Notes: a model not told the origin generated them from the sequence alone. DNA of 64,000 nt from Candidatus Zixiibacteriota bacterium (GCA_016235085.1 JACRMA010000043.1:7327-71326), one strand, 5' to 3'; shown: positions 39,529 to 64,000, numbered from the stretch's first letter. Made by a program: numbers and translations.

Positions 39529-40357
39529 GGCGCCCTGCAATCGTGGGGTGCGGCGTACCGGCGATCCGGTCTGCGGCATCGAACAGCCATTGAGTGTCTT
39601 TATCGGAGAGCGCCCGTTCCGGATCGGGATGAACCTCACAGAAGACGGCATCGACACCGACGGCGAGAGCCGCCCGCATCAGCGGCAGTAGAAACTCCCG
39701 TTTCCCGCCGGACCGTCCCCCGGCGGAGCCAGGGGTCTGGACAGAGTGGGAGGCATCGTAGCAGACGGGGAAACCCGCCTGCCGCATGATCGGCAGCGAG
39801 CGGAAGTCCACCACGAGGTCGCCATATCCAAACGTGGTGCCTCGTTCGGTCAGGATCACCTTGCTGTTGCCGGCACCGATGGCTTTGTCCGCGATGTGCG
39901 CCATATCGGAAGCCGAGACGAATTGGCCCTTCTTGATATTGATGGGCTTCCCGGTGGACGCGGCCGCGACCACCAGATCGGTCTGGCGGCAAAGGAACGC
40001 GGGAATCTGCAAAAGGTCCACAACGCCGGCGGCGGTGCGGGCTTCCTCGGGAGAATGCACATCGGTGGTAAGAGCAAGACCCGACTCGGCGCGGACTTTT
40101 TCAAGGACCCTCAGGCCCTCATAGAGCCCCAGACCAGTGAACGAATCCGAACGCAGGCGGTTGGCCTTGGTGTAGGATGCCTTGAAGACGATGGACTTGC
40201 CCGTCATCATTCCCAACTGCGCGAGGTGTCGGGCAATATCCAAGGCCATCTGCTCACTTTCCAAGACACATGGGCCGAGTATCCAAAGAAGTGGACCGCC
40301 CCCAATGGAGGCTGGGCCGATGTGGAAGTGCCGCGCGGAGGTATTGGGCATATTCAT
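39521..40357 (-). CDS. kdsA: 3-deoxy-8-phosphooctulonate (Kdo-8-P) synthase.
   Basis: Family-wide similarity (LLWILGPCVLESEQ..., DVHSPE..., CYDASHSVQ). Confidence 0.9.
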   Translation of the reverse strand: MNMPNTSARHFHIGPASIGGGPLLWILGPCVLESEQMALDIARHLAQLGMMTGKSIVFKASYTKANRLRSDSFTGLGLYEGLRVLEKVRAESGLALTTDVHSPEEARTAAGVVDLLQIPAFLCRQTDLVVAAASTGKPINIKKGQFVSASDMAHIADKAIGAGNSKVILTERGTTFGYGDLVVDFRSLPIMRQAGFPVCYDASHSVQTPGSAGGRSGGKREFLLPLMRAALAVGVDAVFCEVHPDPERALSDKDTQWLFDAADRIAGTPHPTIAGRHD

Positions 40358-40521: not shown

Positions 40522-42946
<2,425 letters not shown>

Positions 42947-50035: not shown

Positions 50036-51949
50036 TTAGAAGGCAAATAGGATCGACAGGTGTACGCGATCCGAACGTGGATAGCCCGGATGGATGACAC
50101 GGCGGGCATAATCGAGACGAAGCGGCCCCACCGGAGCGACATATTGCACGCCGACACCCAGCGAAATCAGCATATCCTTGAGAGTCACATCATGAAAAGA
50201 GTCCCAATTGTTGCCGGCATCGCCAAACAGGGTAAACCAAAACTTGCCGGTCATTGGAGTCCTCAGCTCAAAATTCGCGAGGGCGATCACGAGACCACCG
50301 GTGGGATTGCCCAGCGTATCGGCCGGACCAACGGAGTTCTCGGAGTAACCACGAATCGAATTCGCACCGCCCAGATAGAATCGGTCGGCCGTCGGGATGA
50401 GCTTGCCGCCGGAGTGCAGGCCGGCCCAGCCGGCACGCAACCGTGTGGCCATGATCGTCGGTGCGCTGATCACCTGATACCGCGCCCACGAGAAATCGAG
50501 CTTATAGAAATCGATGGCGCCGCCAAGGATTCCGCCGACGTAGTCGAAATCGATTCGCGTGCGGGCGCCGGACGAGGGCAGAAACAAATTGGGCCGGGTG
50601 TCACGTTCAAGGGCCAATGTCCCGCGCCGTTTGATCGTGATGCCGGCTTCATCGAGGAGTGATTGTCGCTGGTCTGCGGGAATCCCGTAGATGTTCACGC
50701 GCTCATACACCAGCGCCGACCAGACGCGATTGTACTTCCGGAAACGCCGTGTCACGTTCAGTTCCCCGGACATTTTCTCGATGCGGTAATTCTGCGTGGG
50801 CGACCGCACACCCGGCTCATAGGCCAGCGTCAGCGTGGTCGGCAGCCGGAGTCCGAATATCCAAGGCTCGGTGTAGCGGCCACTGAAACGGTGGTGAAGG
50901 ACGCGCCATTCAGTGATGATCACGAAGCCGGACTGCGCCGTAAGCGCCCATCGCCGCCCGGTGCCGAGCCAGTTGCGTGAACCCCACTCGACCGCATAAT
51001 CGAGCGTCAGGTCGCGGTCGGGATCCTGGCCGGCGCCGGTGTGGAAACCGATGTACGATGGCGGGCGTTCGACCAGCCGCACGTTCAGGTCGGCCACCCG
51101 CGAGGCGGCGCCGGAATTGGTGTCGGTGTACTCCGGGGAAATCCGAACCAGAGCGAACAGCCCGGTGCTGTACAAATCCTGCTGCTTCTCCACAAGGCGC
51201 GTACGTGAGTAGAGCTCGCCCGGCTTGAAGCGCAACTCGCGCATCACCACATTCAAACGCGTGCCCTTTAGTCCGTCGATGCTGACCTTGCCGATGCTGA
51301 TTTCCGAGCCGGATTCCAGTGTGAATGCCACGTCAATTGTGTCGGCGCGATGTGCGACTGTCGCCGCAATGTGCGCCAGCGGATGGCCCCTGTCGGCGCA
51401 CTCTGCCTGCATCTGCACGACAATGAGGGCCAGGAGAAGGGAGTCGGCCGGTTTCCCCCGAACCAGTTCATCGGAATATCGATGGAGCCGCGCCGCCAGT
51501 TCGGGAGGCGTGCCTGTTATGACCATCCCCCCCCAAAACGAACGCATCCCCTCTTCGACGAACACACGCATAACGGCGTGTCCGTCGTCACGGTACGGGC
51601 GGGCCATGACACTGACTCTGGCATCCCAATATCCCTGACGCCGGTACTCGCGCTGGATATTCGTCTCTTCACGCCTCAGCATGGTGGGGTGCAACAGTGG
51701 CTGGGACTTCAGGCGCAGCCGCGACCAGAAACCGGCCGGCACCACCTGCATCACGGCGCGAAGGCCCTTGGTCTTGATCGCTTTGTTGCCGCTCATTTCA
51801 ATGCGCGACAAGACGGGCCGCTTGCGCACCCATTGAGACAGCCACACCGCAGAGGTGTCCTGCGTCTGTGCCCACGCAGGGACGTTGGCCAGAAGTATCA
51901 GCACCGCGAGCACGGCGCTCATCGGGTATGAGCGTCTCAATAGTCCCAA
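50036..51949 (-). CDS. tamA: Omp85-family outer-membrane protein (TamA/BamA-like; POTRA plus 16-strand barrel).
   Basis: Signal peptide and a C-terminal bacterial surface antigen (D15) barrel ending ...HLSILFAF. Adjacent to a TamB-like gene. Confidence 0.75.
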   Translation of the reverse strand: MGLLRRSYPMSAVLAVLILLANVPAWAQTQDTSAVWLSQWVRKRPVLSRIEMSGNKAIKTKGLRAVMQVVPAGFWSRLRLKSQPLLHPTMLRREETNIQREYRRQGYWDARVSVMARPYRDDGHAVMRVFVEEGMRSFWGGMVITGTPPELAARLHRYSDELVRGKPADSLLLALIVVQMQAECADRGHPLAHIAATVAHRADTIDVAFTLESGSEISIGKVSIDGLKGTRLNVVMRELRFKPGELYSRTRLVEKQQDLYSTGLFALVRISPEYTDTNSGAASRVADLNVRLVERPPSYIGFHTGAGQDPDRDLTLDYAVEWGSRNWLGTGRRWALTAQSGFVIITEWRVLHHRFSGRYTEPWIFGLRLPTTLTLAYEPGVRSPTQNYRIEKMSGELNVTRRFRKYNRVWSALVYERVNIYGIPADQRQSLLDEAGITIKRRGTLALERDTRPNLFLPSSGARTRIDFDYVGGILGGAIDFYKLDFSWARYQVISAPTIMATRLRAGWAGLHSGGKLIPTADRFYLGGANSIRGYSENSVGPADTLGNPTGGLVIALANFELRTPMTGKFWFTLFGDAGNNWDSFHDVTLKDMLISLGVGVQYVAPVGPLRLDYARRVIHPGYPRSDRVHLSILFAF

Positions 51950-54900
51950 TTGAAGTGCACGTTGAGGCGATAGAGGTTGTCTTTGTCGCGGCTGCCGTCA
52001 AGGTACATGCGGCGGCTGAATCGGTATTCGAAACCGACTTCCTGGCCGGCGCCGACATCCAACGGGCTGCTGCCATAGAGATACAGATGAGGCGAAAACG
52101 AATGGCCCACGAGCACTTGAGTCATTTTGGGATCGGCGCTGGATGATATCTCGAGAGTCTCGATACCAAGCCTGCGGGCGGCGAGCCGCTGGACTTCGGA
52201 AAATAGAACATTGGTGGCCGCAAAACGCAGGCGGTCCGCCCAGGGATCCCGGGCGGTTGTCGTGTCTCCACTGCCGTAGGTCGTGTTGGCAAGCATGAGT
52301 GAGACGACATCCTGCTGGTTGTAAGGCGGCTGGGGCTGAATTAGAGGTTCTGACGCCTTACCGGACACAGTCAAGTTCAGGTCGATGACGTCACGTCCTC
52401 TCCCGGCCGACGCCTGTTCGAGCCGTGGCTGATTGATCCGGAAGGTGACGGCGATGTCCAGAGTGGGATCGGGAGCGTTCGGGTTGTCGAATGTCAGCAC
52501 GCCACGCGTGATGGTTCCCACTTTGTCGTACAGATAGACCTTGCCGCGGATAAACTCAGCGGTGCCAAGGTACACGGGCCGGCCGCGGTCCCGCATCACG
52601 CGCAGGTCCGCCGAGAGTTCGGCATCCATTTGATCATTGTGCAACCAGTAGTTCCCCGGCAGATCGATGGTCATATCCCAATTCCACAGGGACGTGTCGC
52701 TGACCGCCTCCACCTGTTCGCCGGAGAATGGCTCGCGGTCTTCGATGCGTTTCGGCGCGAAATGCCCGCGAACGGTCGGAGGGTTGATTCCGGTGACCGT
52801 CAAGTCGCAGTCTGTTTCCACGTAGAAGTCCTGGAATTCGAAACGTGCCGGGACGTTTCTCCCGGTCAGTTTGAGATTGTAGTCGAACACATTGTAGGCC
52901 AGCAGGCGGATGTAGCCACTGATTTGAATCTGCCCGCTGCGATTCTTGTCGCGGATCGTGGCGACGCCGCGCGTGACTTCGATCGTATCCTGGCGCAGGG
53001 ACAAATCGACTTGCACATCTTCAATGGGATTGGCGATTTCCACGGCTTTGATCGTCGCACCCCGCAGGAATGCTTCTCCCCGAATCAGTGGGACACGCGG
53101 TGTCCCACTCAGGATCGCGGAGATCGAAAATTGTCCGCGGACAGATTCGATTGTCTCCGGCAGATACCGTGACACAATGTCCAGTGAGGTCCCTGTGGCC
53201 GTCAGGCGCCCGGACAATGGCTGATCGAGAATACGGGCGGTCGGTTTGTCGAACCGCAACTCCATTGGGAGACTGCCGGCCACCTGGACCCGGTAGGCGG
53301 AATGAGTCAGTTCCAACTGGTCGGTGCTCAGTTGGCCGTCCTCGTATGACAGCGTACCCGACAGGTTGCCCAGCTGGTCACCCTGGTAGCTGAGCCCAGT
53401 GATGTGGCCATCGAGATCGAACTTGGGCGCCGCCATACTGCCCCGCACTCGTCCGGTACAGGCGAGTTGCCCCTCCACGTCGAACCTCGGATAGAAGCGC
53501 TCCCAGATATCGGCCACCGGCACACCTTCGACCTCCAGAACCATGTTGAGCGTTTGATCGTAGTTAAGACGCCCGTAAGTCTGCAGTGTCCCCCACTCAC
53601 TCTTAACTGAAAGATTCGAGAAGTTGAATCCCAGCGAGTCGGCCACGACGGCAACGGTATCGTTGGCGCTCAGCGTCTGGTCCTGGATGCGCGCAGTGAC
53701 CGGATACAGCCAGATCGGGATCGTGTCGGCTGACCAGTCGAGACGTCCCCGGCCATTAATGACTGCTTGCGCCGAATTCCACGCGAGCGAATCGAACGTG
53801 ATCATGTGTCCCGCCAGGGCCGCTTTGACCATGATCGAATCGACCTCCCATCCCCAGGCGTTGGAATTGCCAAAGCGCGCCTGCACGGTCCCGGTCGGAT
53901 GGGATCTAAAGTGAGGGACAAAGAAACTGGCGGTGAGCTGGCTCGTTCGCAGGTCGAATAGGCGTAGGGAATCGGACGTCAGGCGTCCCGCGACATCCGG
54001 GTCGGCAGTCAATCCGGACAGGTAGATGTATCCTTCGGTACGCCCCGCGAGCGAATCCACAAACACCAGCGAGTCCCAGGGACGCAGATCGTCACACCAG
54101 ACATTGAGCAGCAAATCGAGCGAATCGCTGTACGTGATCCCTCCCCCGCCGATCACGCGCGATGCGCCCCGTGCCATATAGAAGTCCTGCGCGATCACGG
54201 CATTGCGGGGAGTGACGTGGAGCAGACCGGCCGCGGTGTCGAAGGCGACATGGTTGACGTGCCCGGCATGGAGAGCCACGGTCAGGTCCATCGCGAGTGT
54301 GGCGTTGTTGAGCCCCTCCCCTGTCATGCGCACATAGCCGGAAAGATCGCTGGGGAGAGTCTCGGGTGCGAACTCGTTCAAATCGAAATGTTCGACCGTG
54401 CCGGTGTACTCGTACTTCGGTGGTGATGGTCCCAAATCAACTTTGGCCGCTCCGTGCCAGTTGACGCCGTTGATGGCGCCATCCAGCGTGTCGATGGTCA
54501 ACCGTGATCCGTTCAACATGAGGCGGAGTCTGACATCGGCGAGATTGAATCCTTCGAAGGTACCTGAGACGCTTCCGTTGGCCGTTGCGCCTGATTGGGA
54601 GTCCGGCAGTTTGATTGCGCCGTGGTAATCGAGCCGGCCGGTGAGCTTGCCATTGATGTACGGGTTGATGTCCGCAAGGTCCATGGGGGCTGTCTGCACG
54701 ATCCATCCCGTCGGCCCGCCGCTTCCGGACACATGGGATCGCCTGGTGGCCACCGATGCGGAGTCGACGGTCCAGGCGTCCCCGACACTCGTCAATAGTC
54801 CCGAGATCAGGATTGGGCCAATGTCCGGCAGTGAGGCTCTGATCTGATCAATACGGGCATCGAGCCGTTCGCTGGCGCGGTAGGCGGAAAGCTGCAAGTG

Positions 54901-55497
54901 AATCGAATCAGCAAGGGGAATCGAATCGTGACCGCGCAGAATCGTCCCACCGTTCAGTATCAGCGAATTCAGCCGGAATTCAAACAGTGTTGGATGAGAC
55001 ACCTTGTCGTCCACGGTCGCGCGAACGAACGAGCGAATCGTTTTGGTGATGGAATCGCGCGGGAGGTAGACGCGGAGCGAATCGATCAGCATGTTCTCGA
55101 CAATCCAGTGCCGCTTCCAAAGGTCGGAGATGTTGTATTGAACGGAAAAGTGCTTGATGGTTGCGAGCGTGTCCGGCTGGCCCCCCGTGGTCCGAATCAC
55201 AATCTCGTCCGCCACGATACCGGAGAAAGGATTGCCGCTGAGTTCGCCGATATCGACGGCGAGCGTGGTCTTAACAGCCAGCGCCTGATTGACATAGGCC
55301 ATCACGCGGCGCTGGAGCCATCCGGAGCGGAGGACCCAGATGACCGAACCCGCGATTACCAAAATCAGAAACGCGAGGGATAGAAGCGGGATTTTGAATC
55401 TCTTGCGCACGAATGAATTCCACTTTGGAGGACGGGGGCCGGGCCTCGCCCAACCAATCCAGAATACCAAGTGCCGGGCGGCAGTGCAAGCCGCCAA
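51937..55497 (-). CDS. tamB: TamB/AsmA-like translocation-and-assembly-module protein (N-terminal TM anchor, long beta-rich periplasmic domain).
   Basis: 1186 aa with an N-terminal hydrophobic anchor (IPLLSLAFLILVIAGSVIWVL); 13-nt overlap with the downstream Omp85 gene. Confidence 0.6.
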   Translation of the reverse strand: MAACTAARHLVFWIGWARPGPRPPKWNSFVRKRFKIPLLSLAFLILVIAGSVIWVLRSGWLQRRVMAYVNQALAVKTTLAVDIGELSGNPFSGIVADEIVIRTTGGQPDTLATIKHFSVQYNISDLWKRHWIVENMLIDSLRVYLPRDSITKTIRSFVRATVDDKVSHPTLFEFRLNSLILNGGTILRGHDSIPLADSIHLQLSAYRASERLDARIDQIRASLPDIGPILISGLLTSVGDAWTVDSASVATRRSHVSGSGGPTGWIVQTAPMDLADINPYINGKLTGRLDYHGAIKLPDSQSGATANGSVSGTFEGFNLADVRLRLMLNGSRLTIDTLDGAINGVNWHGAAKVDLGPSPPKYEYTGTVEHFDLNEFAPETLPSDLSGYVRMTGEGLNNATLAMDLTVALHAGHVNHVAFDTAAGLLHVTPRNAVIAQDFYMARGASRVIGGGGITYSDSLDLLLNVWCDDLRPWDSLVFVDSLAGRTEGYIYLSGLTADPDVAGRLTSDSLRLFDLRTSQLTASFFVPHFRSHPTGTVQARFGNSNAWGWEVDSIMVKAALAGHMITFDSLAWNSAQAVINGRGRLDWSADTIPIWLYPVTARIQDQTLSANDTVAVVADSLGFNFSNLSVKSEWGTLQTYGRLNYDQTLNMVLEVEGVPVADIWERFYPRFDVEGQLACTGRVRGSMAAPKFDLDGHITGLSYQGDQLGNLSGTLSYEDGQLSTDQLELTHSAYRVQVAGSLPMELRFDKPTARILDQPLSGRLTATGTSLDIVSRYLPETIESVRGQFSISAILSGTPRVPLIRGEAFLRGATIKAVEIANPIEDVQVDLSLRQDTIEVTRGVATIRDKNRSGQIQISGYIRLLAYNVFDYNLKLTGRNVPARFEFQDFYVETDCDLTVTGINPPTVRGHFAPKRIEDREPFSGEQVEAVSDTSLWNWDMTIDLPGNYWLHNDQMDAELSADLRVMRDRGRPVYLGTAEFIRGKVYLYDKVGTITRGVLTFDNPNAPDPTLDIAVTFRINQPRLEQASAGRGRDVIDLNLTVSGKASEPLIQPQPPYNQQDVVSLMLANTTYGSGDTTTARDPWADRLRFAATNVLFSEVQRLAARRLGIETLEISSSADPKMTQVLVGHSFSPHLYLYGSSPLDVGAGQEVGFEYRFSRRMYLDGSRDKDNLYRLNVHFNWDY

Positions 55498-55519
55498 ACG
55501 GATCTGGCAAGGACATGGC

Positions 55520-56899
55520 TTACCGAGGGGTATTGCCGCGCAGCCGGGATAGTTCCTGCCGGAGCGAATCGGCCACGCGCTGCAGCTCTTGCAAACGGCG
55601 GTCGAAGTCTGCCGCCTGGAGTCCGGAGACGGTTGCCGGATCGACAGACCGGGGCCGGTTGGCAGCGTCGGCCGAAGGGATAAACGGTGTCCCGCTGCTT
55701 CCCGAACGGGGCTGCTCGGCCGGTGAACTGGTCAGACGTGGTGACGCCTCGTTCGTAACGGCGCTCAAGTTTGGCGCGTCGGCACGTCCCAACTCGATCA
55801 CCATTTTGAGCGGGACGCCCCCCCGGATGAGATCAAACAGCATGCGCTGGCCCGGCCGTGCCTGGCTGACGACCTGGCGGAAGTGACGCACCGACCGGAT
55901 TCGCTCCCGGTCGACCGCCGTAATGACATCGCCATCGAGCATCCCCGATTTCTGAGCCGGGGTCTTTTCGACTACATCCGACACCAGCACGCCTTCGCTG
56001 GTCTTGAAATGTGTGACATACCATCCGGTCAGGTCCTCAACGTAGACACCGACATAAGCACGTGGGACGGCTCCGGAGGCAATCACCCGTTCGGCGGCGC
56101 GCAGTGCGGCCTGGATCGGCACCGCCAATGACACGGATGAGGTCGGCAGTTCCAGGCGGCGGCCCGGGACCGTAATGCTGCCCCCCTCCTTCCCTGCGGG
56201 ACATTGGAGCGGATCAAGATAGAACGGTTCGGAAATCTTGGCTTTGATCAGGCCGACAACCTCGCCACGGCTGTTCACCAGCGCTCCACCCGTGCTGCCG
56301 GGCGCGACGCCCAGCGAGAGCTGGATCGTACCATCCGGGCGAAAGCCGTTGACCTCTCCCCAAGAGACGCCGCCGGAGTAACCGTACGAGTTTCCAATCG
56401 CTCCAACAAAGGATCCGACACCCAGTTCCACCGCCTCTCCAAAGCGCGGCGGTCTGAGGCCCTGAACCTTGATCTGGAGCACGGCCACTTCGTCGCTCGA
56501 CCCGAGCAGAGCCGCCTGGAACAGCCGTCCATCGGCGGTCTCGACCCAGAAATCGTCTGAGCCCTCGACAACACGGCTGCAGGTGAGAATTATGCCAGTT
56601 GTATCCAGCACAATGCCGGAGCCAACGAGCATGGACGGGTTGGGTACTCCACGGGTGATGCGGGTGCGTTCGGCGCTCTGTGTTCCGCGCACGGTGACCA
56701 TGGACGGTCCGACCGTGCTGACGATCGCGCGCAAATCACGCTCGTACATCTGGAGCACGCTGAGTGGACCGATCGAATCTGTCTGGGCACGGACGCTTGC
56801 GGGCGACGCGGCAAGCGTGGCGAACACAGCGAACAGCGCGACGGCGCGTCGGATCGGTTGGACTCTGTATTTTTGGTGTGCTGACAACCCGTTTCTCAC
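55520..56899 (-). CDS. HtrA/DegP-family trypsin-like protein with a PDZ domain; catalytic His and Ser appear substituted (pseudo-protease).
   Basis: Aligns to the DegP protease core, but TNNHVV becomes TCSRVV and GNSGGAL becomes GSTGGAL. Has a signal peptide, a PDZ-like region and a C-terminal coiled-coil-like tail. Confidence 0.65.
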   Translation of the reverse strand: MRNGLSAHQKYRVQPIRRAVALFAVFATLAASPASVRAQTDSIGPLSVLQMYERDLRAIVSTVGPSMVTVRGTQSAERTRITRGVPNPSMLVGSGIVLDTTGIILTCSRVVEGSDDFWVETADGRLFQAALLGSSDEVAVLQIKVQGLRPPRFGEAVELGVGSFVGAIGNSYGYSGGVSWGEVNGFRPDGTIQLSLGVAPGSTGGALVNSRGEVVGLIKAKISEPFYLDPLQCPAGKEGGSITVPGRRLELPTSSVSLAVPIQAALRAAERVIASGAVPRAYVGVYVEDLTGWYVTHFKTSEGVLVSDVVEKTPAQKSGMLDGDVITAVDRERIRSVRHFRQVVSQARPGQRMLFDLIRGGVPLKMVIELGRADAPNLSAVTNEASPRLTSSPAEQPRSGSSGTPFIPSADAANRPRSVDPATVSGLQAADFDRRLQELQRVADSLRQELSRLRGNTPR

Positions 56900-57080
56900 T
56901 TAAGCATCCGCCTCCTTCGGCATTCCCCCAAGCATTGTACCCCGGTTCCGGCAATCGGCGCCAGCAAGATCATTGTCCCGCATTGGCCTAAACGGGGGGA
57001 TGCTGGATTTGTGGCTCACCCCAGAAATGAAATCGGCCGCTGGGGGTAGCGGCCGAGATCACCACGCAAGTTATTTATGG

Positions 57081-57734
57081 TCAATAACTTACTTTGCGTG
57101 CCATGTCATCGGAGCGCACCACCGGCATGACGTAATTCGCCCCCGGTTTGGCGGCATTGGAATCGTCCAGTCCAACTGTCTGACTCACATAATCGTTCGG
57201 ACCCTGACTGGCATTCAGATAGAGACTTTGTAGACGGCGGGATTCAGGCGAGCTTCCATCCACGGCGAGCCAACCCGAAGGCATACCAGCCGGACGGGTT
57301 CCCGACACGAGGGTCCCGAAATATTCCAGAGTTGACTTGGGGTCGGTCGGTGCCTGCGCCTGCAAAACGTTGCTCGGGCTGCTATTGGTGCTGGCGCGAT
57401 ATGCACCGTATGAAAGCCCCAGCACAAGAATCATCGAACACACCGCCAAGACCGGGCGCCATGGACGAGAGATCATCAGTTGATACCAGGATTGGGTACG
57501 GGACGGCGCAGTCTCGGCACGGTGAATTGCCGCGCGCAATCGAAGATCGAAATCAGGACGCACCGAAACGGATTCCATCCGGCCGGCGGAGGCGGCGATC
57601 TCCGAGAAATAGAACGCCTCCCGACGGCACTCGGAGCACGAAGCGAGATGGTCATCCAAGCGCCCGCGCTGGCGCTCGGAGAGGGTACCGTCACAACGAG
57701 CGGACAGGTACCAGCGAGCCTTGCGACAACGCAC
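57081..57734 (-). CDS. Anti-sigma factor (zf-HC2 N-terminal domain, single TM, periplasmic C-terminal domain).
   Basis: HLASCSECRREA zinc-finger anti-sigma motif at the N-terminus. Lies immediately downstream of, and overlaps, the ECF sigma gene. Confidence 0.6.
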   Translation of the reverse strand: MRCRKARWYLSARCDGTLSERQRGRLDDHLASCSECRREAFYFSEIAASAGRMESVSVRPDFDLRLRAAIHRAETAPSRTQSWYQLMISRPWRPVLAVCSMILVLGLSYGAYRASTNSSPSNVLQAQAPTDPKSTLEYFGTLVSGTRPAGMPSGWLAVDGSSPESRRLQSLYLNASQGPNDYVSQTVGLDDSNAAKPGANYVMPVVRSDDMARKVSY

Positions 57735-58287
57735 GGGATTGCTCCAGTTTCGGTTTGAGTTGTTCTTTCAGTTCCGCCCGCGCGCGGTTCACACGCGACT
57801 TGACGGTGCCGAGTGGGACACCCAATATCTGGGCGACTTCCTCGTAGGACATCTGCTCGACGTCACGCAGCAGGAATGCCGTCTTGTATTTGGCCGGCAA
57901 ACCGGAAATGGCCTGTTGCAGCATGTGGCCCAGCGCGGATGGCCCCATTTTCGGATCGGGGAGCTCCACGCCCTTGCTGGCCAGATCGAGCATATTGATG
58001 AACTTGAACTTGCGATAGCGGCGCAGTTCGTTCTTCGCCAGGTTTAATGCGATTGTGTAAATCCAGGTCGAAAGACAGTACGAGAAATCGTAGTCCTGAC
58101 GGTGAGTCCAGACACGCAGGAAAGTCTCCTGCACCAAATCCTCGGCCTCACTCTGATCGTTGAGCATTCTGTAGATGAGATTGACCAGGCGGGACTTGTA
58201 GCGCCCCACCAGTTCTTCGAAAGCATCGTAATCGTCCTGTTGGACGCGCCGCATTAGGGCATGGTCGACTGCTTTTTGGGTATCCAT
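57691..58287 (-). CDS. ECF (sigma-24 / RpoE-like) RNA polymerase sigma factor.
   Basis: Region 2 (LVQETFLRVW) and region 4 (MSYEEVAQILGVPLGTVKSRVNRAR) motifs. Start ATG 58287 with GGAGAA upstream. Confidence 0.85.
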   Translation of the reverse strand: MDTQKAVDHALMRRVQQDDYDAFEELVGRYKSRLVNLIYRMLNDQSEAEDLVQETFLRVWTHRQDYDFSYCLSTWIYTIALNLAKNELRRYRKFKFINMLDLASKGVELPDPKMGPSALGHMLQQAISGLPAKYKTAFLLRDVEQMSYEEVAQILGVPLGTVKSRVNRARAELKEQLKPKLEQSRALSQGSLVPVRSL

Positions 58288-58640
58288 CGGGTTCTCCAAT
58301 GAGACCTGATCGCCAACGTTCTTGCTAATATACACGGCAACCCTCGTTCCGTTCCGGAGTACTCTACGGAGAATTCTAACAATTTCAATGGGATTTTGTG
58401 CCTGGGAATCCGGGCATTACGTACAATACGCTGTCGTCCAACATGTTACGCATGCCTGCCATCGACCTCGCCGAGGAGTGCGGATTGACATCTATTGAGG
58501 CTTTCGGGTGATCTCCAAACTGCCATTGCATCAATTTGAGGCGTTTTCGATTTCGAATTGTGCGTAGACTGGGGCTCCGGGGATGCTCCCCACCGGTCCC
58601 TTGAGCAACGGGGGACGGATTATCAGGAGTTTTCGGACCA

Positions 58641-59978
58641 GTGTCGATAGATCAAGCCCTTGCATTGAATTCTGCCCGAGCCGGCTTGTCCGGGGCCACT
58701 GCGTTGCTACAGAGCCGTTGGCCGAGGCACGGCCTCGGGGTCGCGGACATTGTGACCGGGGCGTGTCTGATGCGATTTGCCGCAGCTGGAAATCGCTGGG
58801 TATGCGAGAGGCGCGATGGAGCGATCTGTGAGATTGAAACCGGGGAGCCGCTCGAAGGCCTCGAGCGAATCCTGGGCAACGTATCGAGGCACCACCCGGA
58901 AGCAGGCGCCATCGGCTACATCTCGTACGAGGCGGGATACCGGTGGGTCGGATTATCACTGCCTGAATTTCGCGCCGGCGCCTTCCCGATTCCGGAGATG
59001 CAGTTTCTGGTGTTCGACTGCATTCGGTCAGACACCCGTTCCCGCAATCCGGAGTTCGCAACAGCAGGCAAAGCGGTTTACGCTGAACACGACCTGCTGG
59101 CGATGGCCCGCGCCGACAAGGTCCAACCGATCGTTGATCGCATGGCATACGTGGACGCAATCACACGAATCAAGGAATACATCAGCGCCGGGGACATCTA
59201 TCAGGCGAATTACACGCAGGCGTTCGATGTGCAAACCGACCGCGATGGACTCGAGATCTACGAGGACCTGGCGGCATCGAATCCGGCGCCGTTCGCGGCG
59301 TATCTGCGATTTCCCCCCCTCCATTGGATATCAGCCGATGGCGCTGGTTGGGACTTCCCCGCATGCGAGATCATTAGCAACTCACCGGAGCGATTCTGGA
59401 AGAAGAGTGGTTCGGTGGTCGAGACGCGGCCAATCAAGGGGACAATCGCACGCGGACGAACTGGCACTCTGGATCGGGAAAACCTGCGCATCCTTATGTC
59501 GAGCGACAAGGATCGGGCAGAACTGCTGATGATCACTGATCTGGAGCGCAACGATTTGGGGCGGGTGGCCCAGACGGGATCGGTCAAAGTGGAGGCGCTG
59601 CGCCGGGCACGAGCCTGCCCATCGATCTGGCATCTGGAATCAATTGTCACCGCGCAAGTCGGGCCGGAAGTGAAGTGGCCGGAGATTATGCGCGCGATGT
59701 TCCCTGGCGGGTCGATCACGGGTGCCCCGAAACGCCGTGCGATCGAGATTCTGCGCGGGCTTGAGCCGGTCCCGCGCGGAGTTTACTGCGGCGCGATTGG
59801 GTGGATCGGCGCCAAGGGCGACGCGGACTTTTCCATTGCGATTCGCACGGCCCTGAAAGTCGGCCGGCACGTTCGTGTGCACGGTGGTGGCGGGATCGTG
59901 GCAGACTCGGATCCTTTGGCAGAATATCACGAGTCATTGATCAAGATCGCGCCACTCCTGGAGTGTCTCTGCCGATAA
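58641..59978 (+). CDS. pabB: Aminodeoxychorismate synthase component I (chorismate-binding enzyme family).
   Basis: Chorismate-binding C-terminal motifs (TGAPKRRAIEIL, GVYCGAIGW) and the adjacent pabC. Confidence 0.75.
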   Translation: MSIDQALALNSARAGLSGATALLQSRWPRHGLGVADIVTGACLMRFAAAGNRWVCERRDGAICEIETGEPLEGLERILGNVSRHHPEAGAIGYISYEAGYRWVGLSLPEFRAGAFPIPEMQFLVFDCIRSDTRSRNPEFATAGKAVYAEHDLLAMARADKVQPIVDRMAYVDAITRIKEYISAGDIYQANYTQAFDVQTDRDGLEIYEDLAASNPAPFAAYLRFPPLHWISADGAGWDFPACEIISNSPERFWKKSGSVVETRPIKGTIARGRTGTLDRENLRILMSSDKDRAELLMITDLERNDLGRVAQTGSVKVEALRRARACPSIWHLESIVTAQVGPEVKWPEIMRAMFPGGSITGAPKRRAIEILRGLEPVPRGVYCGAIGWIGAKGDADFSIAIRTALKVGRHVRVHGGGGIVADSDPLAEYHESLIKIAPLLECLCR

Positions 59979-60962: not shown

Positions 60963-63900
60963 CTACCAACACGGAGCCGGACCATTCTGGAAGGCGTAAC
61001 TGATCAGATGGATTATGTCGAGGAGATCGACATTCCCGTCACAGTTCACGTCGGCACGGTCCGCCGGTTCGGGAGACGGTGCACCATTGTAGACGATTTC
61101 GATCGAGGCAATCACGTCGAGTACGTCGATGATCCAATCGTCGTTCAGTTCACCTCGCGTTGGTGGCGCCAGACGGAAAGACGACGTGTCCGCCGCACCC
61201 CCGAATTTTAGCGCAGACGAACTGAAGCTGATTCGATGGCGAACTTCCGCGTGACCGTCGATTCCGATTCCGGTCAGGTAGCTGCCAGGGTCACCGATGA
61301 GCACCCAGGTGATCCTGTATGTGCCGGTGTCGGGCGAGGCAATGATGACACGCGAATCAGGCAATCCACCCCCGTCCCAGTCGGTCAAGGAGTCATAGAC
61401 AGCCCGTGACCCAAAAGTATTGATCGCTGGTCCGATCGTGTCCCTTTTGCCCTGCGCATTCGCCGGGCTGATGACTATCACCTGCAGGGCGGGAGACAAA
61501 GCACCGAACCCACTGGTTTTGATCCCGACCGGGACCAACTCGCTGTAAGCGGTGATCCGCAACGGATCGGGAGTGAGGAGTTTGTTGACCGAGAATTCCG
61601 ACGTGTTCCCCGCGGAATCGGTCGCCGTCGCCGTAACTTGCGACCATTCCGGTCGTGCGACTGAACCGAATTGGAACTTGCCGAAGCCGTCCGCGGTCGC
61701 CGATCCAAGGAATTGGTACGCAGGACCGTGGTTCAACGAGCCCGGTTGGAGTGAGGGGTTCCCGAATTCGGCGGCCAGGTACAACTCCACTTTTGCGCGA
61801 GGATGGGCGGTGCCAAACACAGTGAAAGTATCCGCGCCGACTTGAAAGACGGAATCAAACTCGGGGTAGTTGAGCCGGGCATTCGGCCCGCTGTCGAGAT
61901 CACCCGTATCATTGATTGTCGTGCCGTCGTTTCCGATGTCGATCCAAGGTACCGATTTTTGCGCAAGCAGACCCGAGTGAGCGTAGAATCTGCACCTCGT
62001 GATTGTGTTCGAGTCGGAACCTGAACCGGACACCGCCACCGAGGGCCCGATGAAGTTTGCCATTGCCAGCCCAACGATGCGATTGTTCGAAGACTGGATG
62101 TGTAGTCCGGGGACCGTATCCCCCCAGGCATAGGAGAAGTAGCCCCACAAAATCACACTCGGTTTCGACGGTGGCAGCGCTCCAGGGGCGCTGAAGCCAT
62201 CGATTACTGTTCCACCCGACAGGTCCGTCAATGGAGGAAGGGGTGTTTCCGGCTGAATGATCCCGGACGCGGTGAACGTGATGGTGTCGACGCCCTCATG
62301 CGCGTTTGCGGCCAAGATCGCCCACCGAAGGGAGCCATCGCCGGTGTCGGCTGTGTTGGAAACGACCAGCGAGGAGGTCGACATTAGCGTCAAATCGGCA
62401 GAGAACTCCGATGTATTTCCTGAGGTGTCGGTCGCGGTCGCCTCAACAACCAGTGGCCATGGCGCAGGGACTGAGTCGATGCGGAACTTGCCGGCGACAT
62501 CTGCAGATACCGAATCGATGAACTGACAAGACACACCACGATTGGTGAGGGCAGGCGGACACGTATGACCGTCGTAGAAACCGCGGGCCGCATACAATTC
62601 GACTCGCGATAAGGGCGGGGCCGTTCCAAAGATCGAGAAGATGTCCACGTCGAATTCGACCAACGAATCGAACACCGGATGATTGACCAGCATGTTGGGG
62701 CCAATGTCCGCATCACCGGGATCGTTCGGAGTCGGCCCGTCATTCGAAAGGTCTATTCCCTGACCCGTGTTGTTGAACAGGCATCCCATGATCGTGTTGG
62801 AGATCGCGTGAGGACCCGTAATCGCAATGCCAGGGCCGTCCAATCCGCCAATCACCAGGCCCTCGATTCGATTCTGTGAGGATTGCACGACCAATCCGGG
62901 ACCAGAGACTGGAGCGGCATTCCCATCTCCCCGGATTTCAAAGCCCGGAGACATCGGACTTCCGGTTCCAGGTGGTTTCAATCCGAGAATGGTTGTCCCG
63001 CCCGTCAGGTCGGACAATGGGGGAAGGGGACGGTCCAACTGGAGCGAAAAGGATGATGCAGAAAAGGTGATCGTATCGGGACCCGGATTCGCGTTAGCGT
63101 AAGCAATGGCAGACCGGAGTGAACCGATCCCCTTATCATCCTCCCTGTCCACGGCATCAAGAGCGGCGATGCACGAGTTCAATCGGATGGAGATGGTATT
63201 GTCACCGGAGTTGGCGATAACGAGATCGGGACTCCCACTCACATCGAAATCGGCGACCGCCACCGCTGATGGCAGGGAGCTGGTCAGGGAATTCACAGTT
63301 GTGAAGAAGTTCCCACAGCAGTCGTTCTGCAAAATTACGAGTCTATTACTGCCACGATTGGTGATCGCCAGATCAAGGTAGCCATCACCGGTCAGATCGG
63401 CTGCACTGATCGAGGCGGGCATCGAATCTGCCGGAAAATTCTGAGGGGCGTCAAATGTCCCGTCTCCCCTGTTCCGGAGGATTGAAACGTCGTTGCTTCC
63501 CTCATTGGCCACCGCCAGATCAATATCCAGATCAAAGGTCAATTGCGCAGCAACAAGTGCGATGGGGTTCGCGCCAGCACTATAGTGGACGGCGGCGCTG
63601 AACGTGGCATTGCCATTATTGATCAAAACCGTCACATCCCCGCCGCCGTGATTCGAGACGACCAAATCGAGGTAGCCATCGCGGTCGACATCCGCAACTA
63701 CGACACCACTTGGATTGATTCCCGCTGTGTAGCTAACTGAGGAGGCGAAAGTACCGTTCTGATTGTTCGTGAGGACAGAGACATTGTTGCTGCCGGAGTT
63801 GGCAACAGCGAGGTCGAAATAGCCATCGGCGTCAAGATCGGCCACGCAGGTGGCCGCGGGACCGGAGCCTGCAGGGCAGTTAACCGGCGAGAGGAAGGTG

Positions 63901-64000
63901 CCGTCTCCGTTGTTGTGCAGCAGGGAGACGTTGTCACTGCCCTTGTTGGCGACTGCCAGATCGACTGCCCCATCGCGATCGAGGTCCGCAGCCACGATGG
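60963..64000 (-). CDS. FG-GAP/VCBS-repeat beta-propeller protein with a C-terminal double dockerin-like module; partial, N-terminus beyond the window end.
   Basis: Repeated DLDxDGYxDLAVANxGSNNVSVL FG-GAP-like units. C-terminus ELNDDWIIDVLDVIASIEIVY...DVNCDGNVDLLDIIHLISYAFQNGPAPCW. Confidence 0.65.
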   Translation of the reverse strand, partial: IVAADLDRDGAVDLAVANKGSDNVSLLHNNGDGTFLSPVNCPAGSGPAATCVADLDADGYFDLAVANSGSNNVSVLTNNQNGTFASSVSYTAGINPSGVVVADVDRDGYLDLVVSNHGGGDVTVLINNGNATFSAAVHYSAGANPIALVAAQLTFDLDIDLAVANEGSNDVSILRNRGDGTFDAPQNFPADSMPASISAADLTGDGYLDLAITNRGSNRLVILQNDCCGNFFTTVNSLTSSLPSAVAVADFDVSGSPDLVIANSGDNTISIRLNSCIAALDAVDREDDKGIGSLRSAIAYANANPGPDTITFSASSFSLQLDRPLPPLSDLTGGTTILGLKPPGTGSPMSPGFEIRGDGNAAPVSGPGLVVQSSQNRIEGLVIGGLDGPGIAITGPHAISNTIMGCLFNNTGQGIDLSNDGPTPNDPGDADIGPNMLVNHPVFDSLVEFDVDIFSIFGTAPPLSRVELYAARGFYDGHTCPPALTNRGVSCQFIDSVSADVAGKFRIDSVPAPWPLVVEATATDTSGNTSEFSADLTLMSTSSLVVSNTADTGDGSLRWAILAANAHEGVDTITFTASGIIQPETPLPPLTDLSGGTVIDGFSAPGALPPSKPSVILWGYFSYAWGDTVPGLHIQSSNNRIVGLAMANFIGPSVAVSGSGSDSNTITRCRFYAHSGLLAQKSVPWIDIGNDGTTINDTGDLDSGPNARLNYPEFDSVFQVGADTFTVFGTAHPRAKVELYLAAEFGNPSLQPGSLNHGPAYQFLGSATADGFGKFQFGSVARPEWSQVTATATDSAGNTSEFSVNKLLTPDPLRITAYSELVPVGIKTSGFGALSPALQVIVISPANAQGKRDTIGPAINTFGSRAVYDSLTDWDGGGLPDSRVIIASPDTGTYRITWVLIGDPGSYLTGIGIDGHAEVRHRISFSSSALKFGGAADTSSFRLAPPTRGELNDDWIIDVLDVIASIEIVYNGAPSPEPADRADVNCDGNVDLLDIIHLISYAFQNGPAPCW

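What the first reader, a model, noticed from the sequence alone, without database searches (positions are those of the whole stretch)
55520..58287. ECF sigma / zf-HC2 anti-sigma / catalytically dead HtrA-like protein module
The HtrA/DegP homologue downstream of the sigma–anti-sigma pair has His replaced by Arg (TCSRVV, ~56573–56575) and the nucleophilic Ser by Thr (GSTGGAL, ~56291–56293). An intact PDZ domain and a signal peptide are retained. A pseudo-protease in the position normally occupied by MucD/DegP or RseB suggests a non-proteolytic regulatory role: a sensor or anti-sigma-binding partner rather than the usual envelope protease.
Basis: partly seen in the sequence, partly recalled or inferred. 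Interest (0 to 1): 0.55.

Follow-up and report, generated by a model that had tools for sequence, protein, structure and literature searches.

The report
Sigma/anti-sigma module with dead HtrA partner
A stress-signalling gene trio in an uncultured Zixibacteria genome pairs a sigma factor and its membrane anti-sigma factor with a secreted HtrA-type "protease" that has lost its catalytic residues, and this trio recurs across several candidate phyla, so the dead protease probably works by binding rather than cutting.

Summary
The 459-aa HtrA-like protein (55520..56899, minus strand) has Arg109 for the catalytic His and Thr203 for the Ser. It also has Glu137 at the Asp position. It keeps an N-terminal signal-like segment and one PDZ domain. 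It is not a decaying gene: dN/dS is 0.06 overall and 0.01 in the protease domain.

All 53 scorable close relatives lack the His, while 46 of 46 canonical HtrA hits keep His-Asp-Ser. In all 20 distinct genomic contexts examined (Zixibacteria plus more distant lineages), the gene directly follows an ECF sigma gene and an anti-sigma gene (zf-HC2 in all but one). Other neighbours differ in the distant lineages. A GGAAC-N17-GTAT promoter motif sits upstream of the sigma gene throughout.

All 78 anti-sigma homologues end in Tyr or Phe. Most carry a YVMP box exactly 17 residues from the C-terminus, and the periplasmic part is predicted to be largely unstructured.

My best reading is inferred, not shown: the dead HtrA binds this substrate-like tail and gates anti-sigma proteolysis. 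A chaperone or output role is not excluded, because in Zixibacteria the gene heads a TamB–Omp85 operon behind its own terminator. I rate this a new variant of a known kind.

The parts
58330..58355 (-). ECF-type promoter motif upstream of the sigma gene: -35 GGAAC (58355..58351), 17-nt spacer, -10 GTAT (58333..58330)
   Evidence: This is the only GGAAC-N17-GTAY match in the window. By itself that is not significant: 0.51 matches are expected by chance. Its weight comes from position: GGAAC-N17-GTA[T/C/G] (N18 in L005) sits about 45-70 nt upstream of the sigma start in all 12 Zixibacteria-type loci, L029 and L030. Four of six distant loci have GTAT, and the other two have GTTT or GTCT.
57691..58287 (-). 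ECF sigma factor gene (198 aa from ATG 58287)
   Evidence: Pfam Sigma70_r2 and Sigma70_r4_2 are the only sigma domains found. NCBIfam sigma70-ECF scores 110 bits against a cut-off of 42.9. The best specific models (SigW, RpoE) fall below their cut-offs. Orthologues are 71-100% identical and align over residues 1-198 from this ATG.
57081..57734 (-). Single-pass zf-HC2 (ZAS-type) anti-sigma factor gene (217 aa); overlaps the sigma gene by 44 nt
   Evidence: Pfam zf-HC2 matches residues 3-37. The HxxxCxxC motif HLASCSEC lies at 57627..57650, and the TM segment (residues 91-112) at 57399..57464. In the AF2 model the cytoplasmic domain and TM helix are confident, while the periplasmic residues 118-217 are mostly below pLDDT 60.
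57084..57134 (-). Conserved 17-residue C-terminal tail of the anti-sigma factor, YVMPVVRSDDMARKVSY-COOH (candidate PDZ/cleft ligand)
   Evidence: All 78 homologues end in Y or F (VSY in 52). The Y[VIL][LMIN][PT] box starts exactly 17 residues from the C-terminus in 70 of 78. Of the six distant lineages read, five end in Y or F and five carry a Y[VF]LP box.
57023..57056 (-). Intrinsic-terminator-like hairpin (9-bp stem, 7 G-C pairs) followed by a T-rich tail, just after the anti-sigma stop codon
   Evidence: Found by the terminator scan. A GC-rich hairpin plus T-run with a different stem sequence sits at the same place in the 13 Zixibacteria-type loci read. It is absent from the distant loci, where the gap to the HtrA-like gene is only 1-63 nt.
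56934..56962 (-). Conserved promoter-like element ahead of the HtrA-like gene: GGCGCC (56962..56957), 16 nt, GTACAAT (56940..56934)
   Evidence: A GTA[CG]AA box preceded by a G[CG]CG[TC]CC-like hexamer is conserved in Zixibacteria loci. In L005 and L030 the same position holds a perfect GGAAC-N17-GTAC. Which sigma factor uses it in this window is unresolved.
55520..56899 (-). HtrA-family pseudo-protease gene (459 aa): signal-like N-terminus, protease-fold domain, one PDZ, disordered linker, C-terminal helix
   Evidence: Pfam hits. PDB phmmer matches DegP-like and DegQ structures at E of about 1e-35. The AF2 model has pLDDT 78, and Foldseek returns DegQ, DegP, AlgW, MucD and DegS at E of about 1e-25. 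dN/dS against L006 is 0.058.
56573..56575 (-). Arg109 codon at the catalytic His position
   Evidence: In the family this column reads R 42, S 6, L 2, G 2, N 1 and H 0.
56489..56491 (-). Glu137 codon at the catalytic Asp position (Asp136 is adjacent)
   Evidence: In the close family this column is D or E, with one Q and one N; in distant members it is mostly N or G.
56291..56293 (-). Thr203 codon at the nucleophilic Ser position
   Evidence: It is T in the window's clade and neighbouring clades and S in the other Zixibacteria clades.
56132..56236 (-). Family-specific insertion in loop L2 (residues 222-256, ISEPFYLDP...PGRRLELPTSSV)
   Evidence: The insertion is absent from canonical HtrAs in alignment A1. 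L251, P252 and T253 are invariant, and E224, P225, Y227, R247, R248, E250, S254 and V256 are nearly invariant, in A2. It is modelled as a beta-hairpin at moderate confidence.
55793..56056 (-). PDZ domain (residues 282-369) with invariant carboxylate-binding loop YVGV
   Evidence: Pfam PDZ_2, PDZ_6 and PDZ all match. Y282, G284 and Y286 are invariant. dN/dS is 0.03.
55532..55639 (-). C-terminal amphipathic helix, conserved as D..RL..L.R..DSL..E...L, standing where DegP/DegQ carry a second PDZ
   Evidence: AF2 models a helix at 421-456 after a disordered stretch at 377-420. D444, S445, L446 and E449 are nearly invariant. Most of the distant relatives read also end in a K/E/L-rich helix.
51937..55497 (-). 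TamB-like gene, 22 nt downstream of the HtrA-like gene
   Evidence: Pfam TamB at E 2e-34. It follows the HtrA-like gene in every Zixibacteria locus with enough flank. It is not adjacent in five of the six distant lineages.
50036..51949 (-). Omp85/POTRA (TamA-like) gene whose start overlaps the end of tamB
   Evidence: Pfam Omp85 at E 1e-51 and POTRA. It is conserved after tamB in Zixibacteria loci.

Best explanation
This is a conserved three-component envelope-signalling module: an ECF sigma factor, a single-pass zinc-finger anti-sigma factor, and a secreted HtrA-family pseudo-protease.

What the data show:
- The sigma gene carries an ECF-type GGAAC-N17-GTAT motif, conserved in position, which implies autoregulation.
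- The anti-sigma periplasmic part is mostly unstructured. It ends in a conserved, fixed-length 17-residue tail with an aromatic C-terminus.
- The HtrA-like protein keeps the protease fold and a PDZ domain with an intact carboxylate-binding loop.
- Across the whole family it has lost the catalytic His, and here also the Ser and Asp. It is nevertheless under strong purifying selection.
- The three genes travel together across lineages.

What I infer:
- The pseudo-protease acts as a non-cleaving receptor for the anti-sigma tail. The aromatic C-terminus would sit in the PDZ groove, and the YVMP box would reach the dead substrate cleft, as a trapped pseudo-substrate.
- Binding would shield the anti-sigma factor from the proteases that start its regulated degradation, as RseB or MucB do.
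- Exposed C-termini of unassembled outer-membrane proteins would compete for the PDZ and free the tail. The sigma factor would then be released after site-1 and site-2 cleavage by enzymes encoded elsewhere.
- In Zixibacteria the pseudo-protease gene sits behind a terminator and is co-transcribed with tamB and a tamA-like omp85. This would couple the sensor's abundance to outer-membrane biogenesis.
For: Loss of catalysis:
- R109, E137 and T203 align to the His, Asp and Ser of solved DegP/DegQ structures.
- 0 of 53 close relatives has His, against 46 of 46 canonical HtrAs. The replacement residue varies (R/S/L/G/N), so no substitute base is conserved.
- Distant relatives have mostly lost both His and Asp, and some have also lost the Ser.

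The protein is still functional:
- dN/dS is 0.058 overall and 0.011 in the protease domain.
- There are 48 invariant columns, including the remodelled L2 and L3 loops and the PDZ carboxylate loop.
- The AF2 model is confident and has an HtrA fold.

Link to the sigma/anti-sigma pair:
- The order sigma, anti-sigma, HtrA-like holds in all 12 Zixibacteria-type loci with enough upstream flank (two further partial loci are consistent).
- It also holds in all 6 distant cluster representatives and both reverse look-ups from anti-sigma homologues.
- In the distant loci the gap to the HtrA-like gene is 1-63 nt and the flanking genes are otherwise unrelated.
- The GGAAC-N17-GTAT motif is conserved upstream of the sigma gene throughout. 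The same motif lies directly upstream of the HtrA-like gene in L005 and L030.

The tail as a ligand:
- 78 of 78 anti-sigma homologues end in Y or F.
- The Y[VIL][LMIN][PT] box sits exactly 17 residues from the C-terminus in 70 of 78.
- Five of the six distant lineages read end in Y or F, and five carry a Y[VF]LP box.
- The periplasmic region is predicted to be largely unstructured.

Established knowledge: HtrA PDZ domains bind C-terminal aromatic or hydrophobic residues, as DegS does with OMP YxF (reviewed in PMC8103513). DegP engages substrates through a PDZ1-bound C-terminus plus a cleavage-site segment a fixed distance away. This 'molecular ruler' model is my own knowledge; it is mentioned in PMC3169616.
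Against: - No physical interaction was shown or modelled.
- In this window and the other Zixibacteria loci read, a terminator separates the gene from the anti-sigma gene. Its own promoter-like element lacks a GGAAC -35 at the right spacing in most loci, and it is co-transcribed with tamB and omp85. That fits an output or biogenesis factor at least as well as a regulator.
- Two family members (P0121, P0123) keep His-Asp-Ser within the same module. The module is therefore compatible with an active protease, and the ancestral role may have been quality control as in MucD.
- The tail is not universal. The L021 anti-sigma ends in FSP, and P0351 lacks a clear YVMP box.
- The site-1 and site-2 proteases the model needs were not found. 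Only 64 kb of the genome could be searched.
Confidence: 0.5

Rival explanations
1. Protease-independent chaperone or holdase that is an output of the stress response, not a regulator. The protein would bind unfolded outer-membrane proteins or TAM substrates, as protease-dead DegP(S210A) still does. It would sit next to the sigma/anti-sigma pair because it belongs to their regulon, as MucD does in algU-mucABCD.
For: - In every Zixibacteria locus the gene is followed directly by tamB and a tamA-like omp85 (22 nt in the window) and lies behind a terminator that ends the sigma/anti-sigma unit.
- L005 and L030 have a full GGAAC-N17-GTAC motif in front of it, which makes it a likely direct sigma target there.
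- Family members with an intact triad exist.
- Established knowledge: the chaperone function of DegP does not require its catalytic Ser.
Against: - Outside Zixibacteria the TamB link disappears while the sigma/anti-sigma link stays. Gaps there are 1-63 nt and there is no terminator.
- This reading does not explain the co-conserved, fixed-length tail of the anti-sigma factor that ends in an aromatic residue.
- The protein lacks the second PDZ domain that DegP and DegQ use to build chaperone cages.
Confidence: 0.3
2. MamO-like allosteric partner. The pseudo-protease would form mixed oligomers with an active HtrA paralogue encoded elsewhere, or would activate it. That paralogue would then carry out site-1 cleavage of the anti-sigma factor.
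For: - MamO is a bacterial HtrA-family pseudo-protease with Thr at the nucleophile position. It promotes proteolysis by the active paralogue MamE without using its own active site (PMC4794232).
- The protease-domain surface of this protein is extremely conserved.
Against: - No active HtrA paralogue lies in the window or next to any of the contexts examined.
- There is no evidence for hetero-oligomers.
- The MamO architecture is different. It is fused to a TauE-like membrane domain (own knowledge), and its H116 and D149 are retained.
Confidence: 0.1
3. The protein is still an active protease that uses a non-canonical mechanism, with a Thr or Ser nucleophile and some other general base.
For: - The nucleophile position is always Ser or Thr in the Zixibacteria family, and the GxxGG oxyanion-loop motif is kept.
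- The Asp/Glu position is mostly acidic.
Against: - The residue at the His position is not conserved (R, S, L, G, N).
- Some distant members also lose the nucleophile (V, M, G, A) and most of them lose the acid (N or G).
- Established enzymology: the chymotrypsin fold needs the His as general base, and a Thr nucleophile is poorly tolerated. MamO, which has Thr, is inactive (PMC4794232).
Confidence: 0.04
4. A decaying pseudogene, or an assembly or annotation artefact of one MAG.
For: None beyond the loss of catalytic residues.
Against: - The ORF is intact in more than 50 orthologues from independent samples.
- dN/dS is 0.06.
- There are 48 invariant columns.
- The same substitutions occur in a 96%-identical orthologue from another MAG, L006.
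Confidence: 0.01

Closest known systems
algU-mucA-mucB-mucC-mucD operon of Pseudomonas aeruginosa (MucD is an HtrA/DegP homologue)
   Same: An ECF sigma gene and its single-pass anti-sigma gene are followed in the same locus by a gene for a periplasmic HtrA-family protein. The solved MucD structure (8k2y) is among the top sequence and fold matches.
   Different: MucD has an intact His-Asp-Ser triad and works as a protease/chaperone (own knowledge). Here the triad reads Arg/Glu/Thr. There is a single PDZ domain followed by a C-terminal helix, and there is no MucB/RseB homologue in the locus.
DegS-RseA-sigmaE and AlgW-MucA site-1 proteolysis
   Same: Both involve a single-PDZ HtrA-family protein, envelope-stress ECF signalling and PDZ recognition of aromatic C-termini (YxF; PMC8103513). 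DegS and AlgW structures are strong fold matches.
   Different: DegS and AlgW are active, membrane-anchored enzymes that cleave the anti-sigma factor. This protein lacks the catalytic His. Its L3 sensor loop is about 8 residues shorter and its L2 loop about 25 residues longer. The aromatic C-terminus sits on the anti-sigma factor itself.
RseB / MucB (periplasmic co-anti-sigma proteins)
   Same: This is the proposed working analogy only. RseB and MucB are periplasmic proteins encoded right after the anti-sigma gene; they bind its periplasmic part and block site-1 cleavage until a signal displaces them (PMC8103513).
   Different: The fold is unrelated. No MucB_RseB domain was found; this protein is an HtrA homologue. 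Binding has not been demonstrated here.
MamO (magnetosome HtrA-family pseudo-protease)
   Same: MamO is a bacterial HtrA-family member with a degenerate active site, including Thr at the nucleophile position. It is retained under selection for non-catalytic roles (PMC4794232).
   Different: MamO keeps its His and Asp, binds transition metals through a di-His motif and activates MamE. Its context is the magnetosome island, with no link to a sigma/anti-sigma pair.
Mycobacterial sigE-rseA-htrA-tatB locus (own knowledge, not checked here)
   Same: The gene order is the same: ECF sigma, anti-sigma, HtrA-family gene.
   Different: The mycobacterial HtrA has an intact triad and is a membrane-anchored active protease.

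Membership tests
HtrA/DegP family (MEROPS S1C serine endopeptidases) | Chymotrypsin-fold protease domain | tested here: met
   Pfam Trypsin_2 at E 1e-17. PDB phmmer matches DegP-like and DegQ structures at E of about 1e-35. Foldseek on the AF2 model returns DegQ, DegP, AlgW, MucD and DegS at E of about 1e-25.
HtrA/DegP family (MEROPS S1C serine endopeptidases) | At least one C-terminal PDZ domain | tested here: met
   PDZ_2, PDZ_6 and PDZ all match residues 282-369. The carboxylate-binding loop YVGV is invariant.
HtrA/DegP family (MEROPS S1C serine endopeptidases) | Catalytic triad His-Asp-Ser | tested here: not met
   R109, E137 and T203 occupy the triad columns. 0 of 53 family members has His, against 46 of 46 canonical hits with H/D/S. 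NCBIfam Do-family, DegS and DegQ models all score far below their cut-offs, for example 160 against 416 bits. The protein is therefore a structural homologue, a pseudo-enzyme, and not an enzyme member.
HtrA/DegP family (MEROPS S1C serine endopeptidases) | Trimer-based oligomer | not testable with these tools
   Only monomer prediction was available.
DegS-type site-1 protease | N-terminal membrane anchor and active triad, with cleavage of the anti-sigma periplasmic domain | tested here: not met
   The triad is absent. The N-terminus looks like a cleavable signal peptide (VRA|Q) when read by eye. Whether it is a signal peptide or a signal anchor is not resolved.
RseB/MucB co-anti-sigma proteins | MucB_RseB fold | tested here: not met
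   There is no MucB_RseB Pfam hit, and the fold is HtrA. Only the gene position (directly after the anti-sigma gene) and the proposed function resemble RseB.
ECF (group 4) sigma factor with cognate anti-sigma | Only sigma regions 2 and 4 are present, and the family-level model is passed | tested here: met
   Sigma70_r2 and Sigma70_r4_2 match. TIGR02937 sigma70-ECF scores 110.5 bits against a cut-off of 42.9. No equivalog-level model is reached; SigW scores 135 against 209 and RpoE 122 against 236.
ECF (group 4) sigma factor with cognate anti-sigma | Adjacent, co-transcribed anti-sigma gene with an anti-sigma domain (ZAS HxxxCxxC) | tested here: met
   zf-HC2 matches at E 7e-8, and the motif HLASCSEC is present. 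The 44-nt gene overlap is conserved in many loci.
ECF (group 4) sigma factor with cognate anti-sigma | Autoregulated promoter with an AAC-containing -35 element | tested here: inconclusive
   GGAAC-N17-GTAT is conserved in position upstream of the sigma gene in all lineages examined. There are no transcription data, so its use as a promoter is inferred from sequence only.
MamO-like pseudo-proteases | Degenerate HtrA active site retained under selection | tested here: met
   Thr sits at the nucleophile position, as in MamO T225.
MamO-like pseudo-proteases | Di-histidine metal-binding motif, magnetosome context and partner MamE | not tested
   There are no magnetosome genes in the window. The metal-site positions were not mapped. 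This protein is not filed as a MamO relative.

The most novel reading that the evidence does not exclude
A previously undescribed mode of ECF signalling, in which a dead HtrA protease acts as a periplasmic receptor. It would hold the anti-sigma factor's 17-residue tail as an uncleavable pseudo-substrate, with the aromatic C-terminus in the PDZ groove and the YVMP box in the defunct cleft. Stress would be sensed by competitive displacement of the tail by C-termini of unassembled outer-membrane proteins. The module is conserved in Zixibacteria and has relatives in candidate division TA06 and Gemmatimonadota. It probably derives from an active HtrA/anti-sigma pair that still exists in a few lineages (P0121, P0123).
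Probability: 0.35. Interest if true: 0.75.

Novelty: new variant of a known kind. Interest (0 to 1): 0.6.

Why it matters
ECF sigma/anti-sigma pairs are among the most abundant bacterial signalling devices. For most groups the periplasmic sensing step is unknown.

Here a whole family of "serine protease Do / S1C" annotations turns out to be pseudo-enzymes locked to one ECF group. The anti-sigma factor carries a matching, fixed-length peptide tail.

If the tail-capture model holds, it would show how a protease–substrate pair can evolve into a receptor–ligand pair. It would also add a bacterial HtrA pseudo-protease besides MamO. The binding interface is simple and directly testable with peptide, PDZ and reporter assays, which matters in phyla that have no cultured representatives.

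At the least, the automatic annotation of these proteins as active proteases is wrong. Metabolic or proteolytic inferences drawn from it for Zixibacteria and related MAGs should be corrected.

Tried and rejected
- **Complex modelling.** I built 14 paired fusions of HtrA core, Gly-Ser linker and anti-sigma tail (alignment A3) to model the complex.
- **ECF literature.** I looked for a described ECF group with an HtrA-like neighbour. The ECF re-classification paper has no mention of HtrA, trypsin, PDZ or Zixibacteria in its main text, and no supplements are held. Full-text searches for HtrA with pseudoprotease, anti-sigma and catalytically inactive returned only MamO and unrelated work.
- **A second protease in the window.** I looked for an active HtrA, DegS or RseP. 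None is present among the 34 large ORFs scanned.
- **The GGAAC upstream of the HtrA-like gene.** I tested whether the GGAAC in the 56941..56950 stretch is an ECF -35 element. It lies only 4 nt from the GTAC box, so it is at the wrong spacing and I rejected it. The conserved hexamer at the correct spacing is GGCGCC.
- **The sigma-70 consensus scan.** It gave no more hits than shuffled sequence.
- **Rfam.** No RNA family matches 55400..58800, so the conserved intergenic element is not a known riboswitch or sRNA.
- **Zixibacteria synteny.** I considered that synteny within Zixibacteria alone proves nothing, because the downstream housekeeping genes (Peptidase_C26, Aminotran_5, MnmA) are syntenic too. 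That is why I examined distant cluster representatives with unrelated flanks.
- **Cultured hosts.** All named family members are MAGs.

Full report
**What is in the sequence**

On the minus strand of the window lie three consecutive genes.
- An ECF sigma factor gene at 57691..58287. It encodes 198 aa from the ATG that every orthologue uses. The mechanical ORF extends to a GTG at 58335, which lies inside the promoter.
- An anti-sigma factor gene at 57081..57734 (217 aa). It overlaps the sigma gene by 44 nt.
- An HtrA-like gene at 55520..56899 (459 aa).

Pfam finds only sigma regions 2 and 4 in the first protein. It finds zf-HC2 at residues 3-37 of the second, and Trypsin_2 (93-217) plus one PDZ (282-369) in the third. 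NCBIfam places the sigma factor in the ECF superfamily but under no specific equivalog. It scores the HtrA-like protein far below every curated HtrA, DegS or DegQ cut-off.

Directly downstream are a TamB-like gene (51937..55497, 22 nt away) and an Omp85/POTRA gene (50036..51949). The window derives from a Zixibacteria MAG: a 100%-identical protein is deposited as [quoted passage not shown].

**Checking the observation**

phmmer alignments to solved DegP-like and DegQ structures place TCSRVV opposite TNNHVI, GSTGGAL opposite GNSGGAL, and DEVAV opposite SDLAV/SDVAV. The triad positions are therefore:
- Arg109, codon 56573..56575
- Glu137, codon 56489..56491
- Thr203, codon 56291..56293

The codons were verified. 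Asp136 is adjacent, so a one-residue bulge cannot be excluded.

An AlphaFold2 model built on the family alignment is confident over the protease and PDZ domains (mean pLDDT 78). Its best structural matches are DegQ, DegP, AlgW, MucD and DegS.

**The loss of catalysis is a family trait, not an accident**

A protein search returned 56 close relatives (E of 1e-63 or better). These are sharply separated from canonical DegQ-type hits, which start at E of 1e-31. In a joint alignment of 140 sequences:
- All 46 canonical hits carry H/D/S.
- None of the 53 scorable family members has His. The column reads R 42, S 6, L 2, G 2, N 1.
- The Asp column is D or E, with one Q and one N.
- The nucleophile column is Thr in the window's clade and its neighbours and Ser in the rest.

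Because the residue that replaces His is not conserved, no substitute general base has been fixed.

A profile search of 1.84 billion representatives found further full-length relatives. Most lack the His (S, G, A, L, D, N, T) and most also lack the Asp (N or G). Some also lack the Ser (V, M, G, A). Only two, P0121 and P0123, keep His-Asp-Ser.

The gene is under strong purifying selection. Against a 96%-identical orthologue, dN/dS is 0.058 overall, 0.011 in the protease domain and 0.032 in the PDZ.

Relative to canonical HtrAs the family has:
- a short LA loop;
- an L3 loop about 8 residues shorter but nearly invariant (NGFRPDGT);
- an insertion of about 25 residues in L2 with conserved motifs (KAKISEPFYLDP, PGRRLELPTS), modelled as a hairpin;
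- a single PDZ with an invariant YVGV carboxylate loop;
- a disordered linker followed by a conserved C-terminal helix, where DegP and DegQ have a second PDZ.

**The three genes form a unit**

Within Zixibacteria, every locus with enough flank shows sigma, anti-sigma, HtrA-like, TamB and Omp85 in that order. Several also show the same downstream housekeeping genes. Conserved gene order within one phylum is weak evidence, so I examined distant cluster representatives.

All six distant representatives (P0105, P0113, P0117, P0146, P0123, P0130) sit directly after an ECF sigma gene and an anti-sigma gene. The anti-sigma gene has a zf-HC2 hit in all but L021. Gaps are 9-63 nt and flanks are otherwise unrelated. 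TamB is not adjacent in five of the six.

Two reverse look-ups that started from distant anti-sigma homologues again found an HtrA-like gene immediately downstream. One of these, L029, has Arg at the His column and no Ser.

Named members come from several Zixibacteria clades, candidate division TA06 and Gemmatimonadota. All are MAGs, and all are annotated generically.

**Regulatory signals**

A GGAAC-N17-GTA[T/C/G] motif (N18 in L005) lies about 45-70 nt upstream of the sigma start in all 12 Zixibacteria-type loci, L029 and L030. Four of the six distant loci have GGAAC-N17-GTAT; the other two have GTTT or GTCT as the downstream element. In the window it spans 58355..58330 and is the only such match. 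One match is not significant by itself, since 0.51 are expected by chance. The conserved position is the evidence.

In the distant lineages the short gaps imply a three-gene operon driven by this promoter. In Zixibacteria, a GC-rich hairpin with a T-run follows the anti-sigma stop codon in the 13 loci read, with a different stem sequence in each (window 57056..57033).

After the hairpin comes a conserved element, G[CG]CG[TC]CC-N16-GTACAAT (window 56962..56934). In the deep-branching loci L005 and L030 this element is a perfect GGAAC-N17-GTAC. The HtrA-like–TamB–Omp85 unit is therefore probably a separate transcript in this genome. It is, or once was, a direct target of the same sigma factor. 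Which sigma factor reads the window's version is unresolved. Rfam finds no known RNA in the region.

**The anti-sigma tail**

The cytoplasmic zinc-finger domain (HLASCSEC) and the single TM helix are conserved and confidently modelled. The periplasmic part (118-217) is mostly of low confidence, with one short helix. Its end, however, is highly conserved.
- All 78 homologues terminate in Tyr or Phe (VSY in 52).
- In 70 of 78 a Y[VIL][LMIN][PT] box begins exactly 17 residues from the C-terminus.
- Five of the six distant lineages read end in Tyr or Phe (RSY, GPY, VVF, ATY, VSY), and five carry a Y[VF]LP box 17-22 residues from the end. L021 ends in FSP.

A fixed distance to a free aromatic C-terminus is what a PDZ ligand looks like. 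HtrA PDZ domains are known to bind such termini, as DegS does with OMP YxF (PMC8103513). DegP engages substrates through a PDZ-bound C-terminus plus a cleavage-site segment a set distance upstream. This "molecular ruler" idea is my own knowledge; it is mentioned in PMC3169616.

**Most likely mechanism**

Shown:
- The HtrA homologue is a secreted, selected pseudo-enzyme tied to an ECF sigma/anti-sigma pair.
- The anti-sigma factor carries a conserved, substrate-like tail.

Inferred:
- The pseudo-protease captures that tail without cleaving it. The C-terminus would sit in the PDZ groove and the YVMP box would reach the dead cleft.
- Capture shields the anti-sigma factor, as RseB or MucB do.
- Competing C-termini from unassembled outer-membrane proteins release the tail. 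Regulated proteolysis by enzymes encoded elsewhere then frees the sigma factor.

I give the overall statement about 0.5. The non-catalytic nature and the functional link to the pair are much more secure (about 0.8) than the specific tail-capture step (about 0.35-0.4).

**Rival explanations**
- A protease-independent chaperone or output factor (0.3). This is favoured by the terminator, the TamB–Omp85 co-transcription and the two members with an intact triad. It does not explain the tail, and the TamB link disappears outside Zixibacteria.
- A MamO-like activator of an active paralogue (0.1; PMC4794232).
- Residual non-canonical proteolysis (0.04).
- A pseudogene or artefact (refuted).

**Comparison with known systems**

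The closest known arrangements are algU-mucABCD (with MucD) and the mycobacterial sigE-rseA-htrA locus. Both carry an active HtrA gene beside a sigma/anti-sigma pair. DegS and AlgW are the closest single-PDZ enzymes, RseB and MucB the closest functional analogy, and MamO the closest bacterial HtrA pseudo-protease.

The protein meets the fold and PDZ criteria of the HtrA family but fails the catalytic-triad criterion, so it should be called an HtrA-family pseudo-protease and not a serine protease. I found no description of an ECF-linked pseudo-HtrA in the searchable literature, and no curated family model covers it. I rate it a new variant of a known kind.

**Limits**
- No transcription data are available.
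- Only 64 kb of the genome was available to look for active HtrA, RseP or tail-specific proteases.
- The signal peptide was judged by eye.
- No named member comes from a cultured organism.

Noticed in passing
window 57691..57734; also L001, L003, L005, L016, L023, L025, L029, L030: The sigma and anti-sigma genes overlap by exactly 44 nt. The same 44-nt overlap recurs in Zixibacteria and in several distant lineages, so both reading frames of this stretch are conserved. L018 has a 4-nt overlap and L021 has none.
   Followed up: partly
window 56934..56962 (minus strand); L005 ~3636..3661; L030 ~5710..5735: A conserved G[CG]CG[TC]CC-N16-GTACAAT element lies ahead of the HtrA-like gene in Zixibacteria. 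Only the deep-branching loci L005 and L030 have a perfect GGAAC-N17-GTAC there. This suggests a promoter that has drifted away from the ECF consensus, or one that is read by another sigma factor.
   Followed up: partly
window 50036..55497 (minus strand): The gene order is tamB followed by an overlapping omp85/POTRA gene. That matches the Bacteroidota tamB2-tamL2 order and not the proteobacterial tamA-tamB order (PMC12045153). The Omp85 N-terminus shows no lipobox Cys by eye, so it looks more like TamA than TamL.
   Followed up: no
L025 6001..7311 (P0123) and P0121: Two family members keep a complete His-Asp-Ser triad while sitting in the same sigma/anti-sigma/HtrA-like module. They may represent the active ancestral state. 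In L025 and L029 a CMD-family gene separates the HtrA-like gene from tamB; in L025 a radical-SAM gene on the opposite strand also intervenes.
   Followed up: partly
window 625..5835 and 5774..11506 (minus strand): There are two adjacent giant proteins of 1736 and 1910 aa, built from cadherin-like, Big_9 and PKD repeats. A 715-aa protein with the same domains follows at 11313..13460.
   Followed up: no
window 13504..16230, 16914..19925, 21512..22255, 60963..63995 (minus strand): This is a set of surface proteins. Their domains include He_PIG and Big_9 Ig domains, FG-GAP repeats, cohesin and dockerin modules, and T9SS-type C-terminal sorting domains (Por_Secre_tail, CHU_C).
   Followed up: no
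window 29657..35984 (minus strand): An aconitase gene lies near genes resembling ATP-citrate lyase or citryl-CoA synthetase/lyase. Their domains are ATP-grasp_2 with Citrate_bind, CoA_binding with Ligase_CoA, and the Citrate_synt C-terminal domain. Together these suggest a reductive TCA module.
   Followed up: no
window 37261..40357 (minus strand): There is an envelope-biogenesis cluster: an LptC-related gene, a KdsD-like gene (SIS plus CBS), a KdsC-like HAD phosphatase and a KdsA-like DAHP_synth_1 gene. A CTP synthase gene lies next to it at 40522..42186.
   Followed up: no
window 23743..26761 (minus strand): An adjacent pair of PmbA/TldD-family metallopeptidase genes (447 and 553 aa).
   Followed up: no
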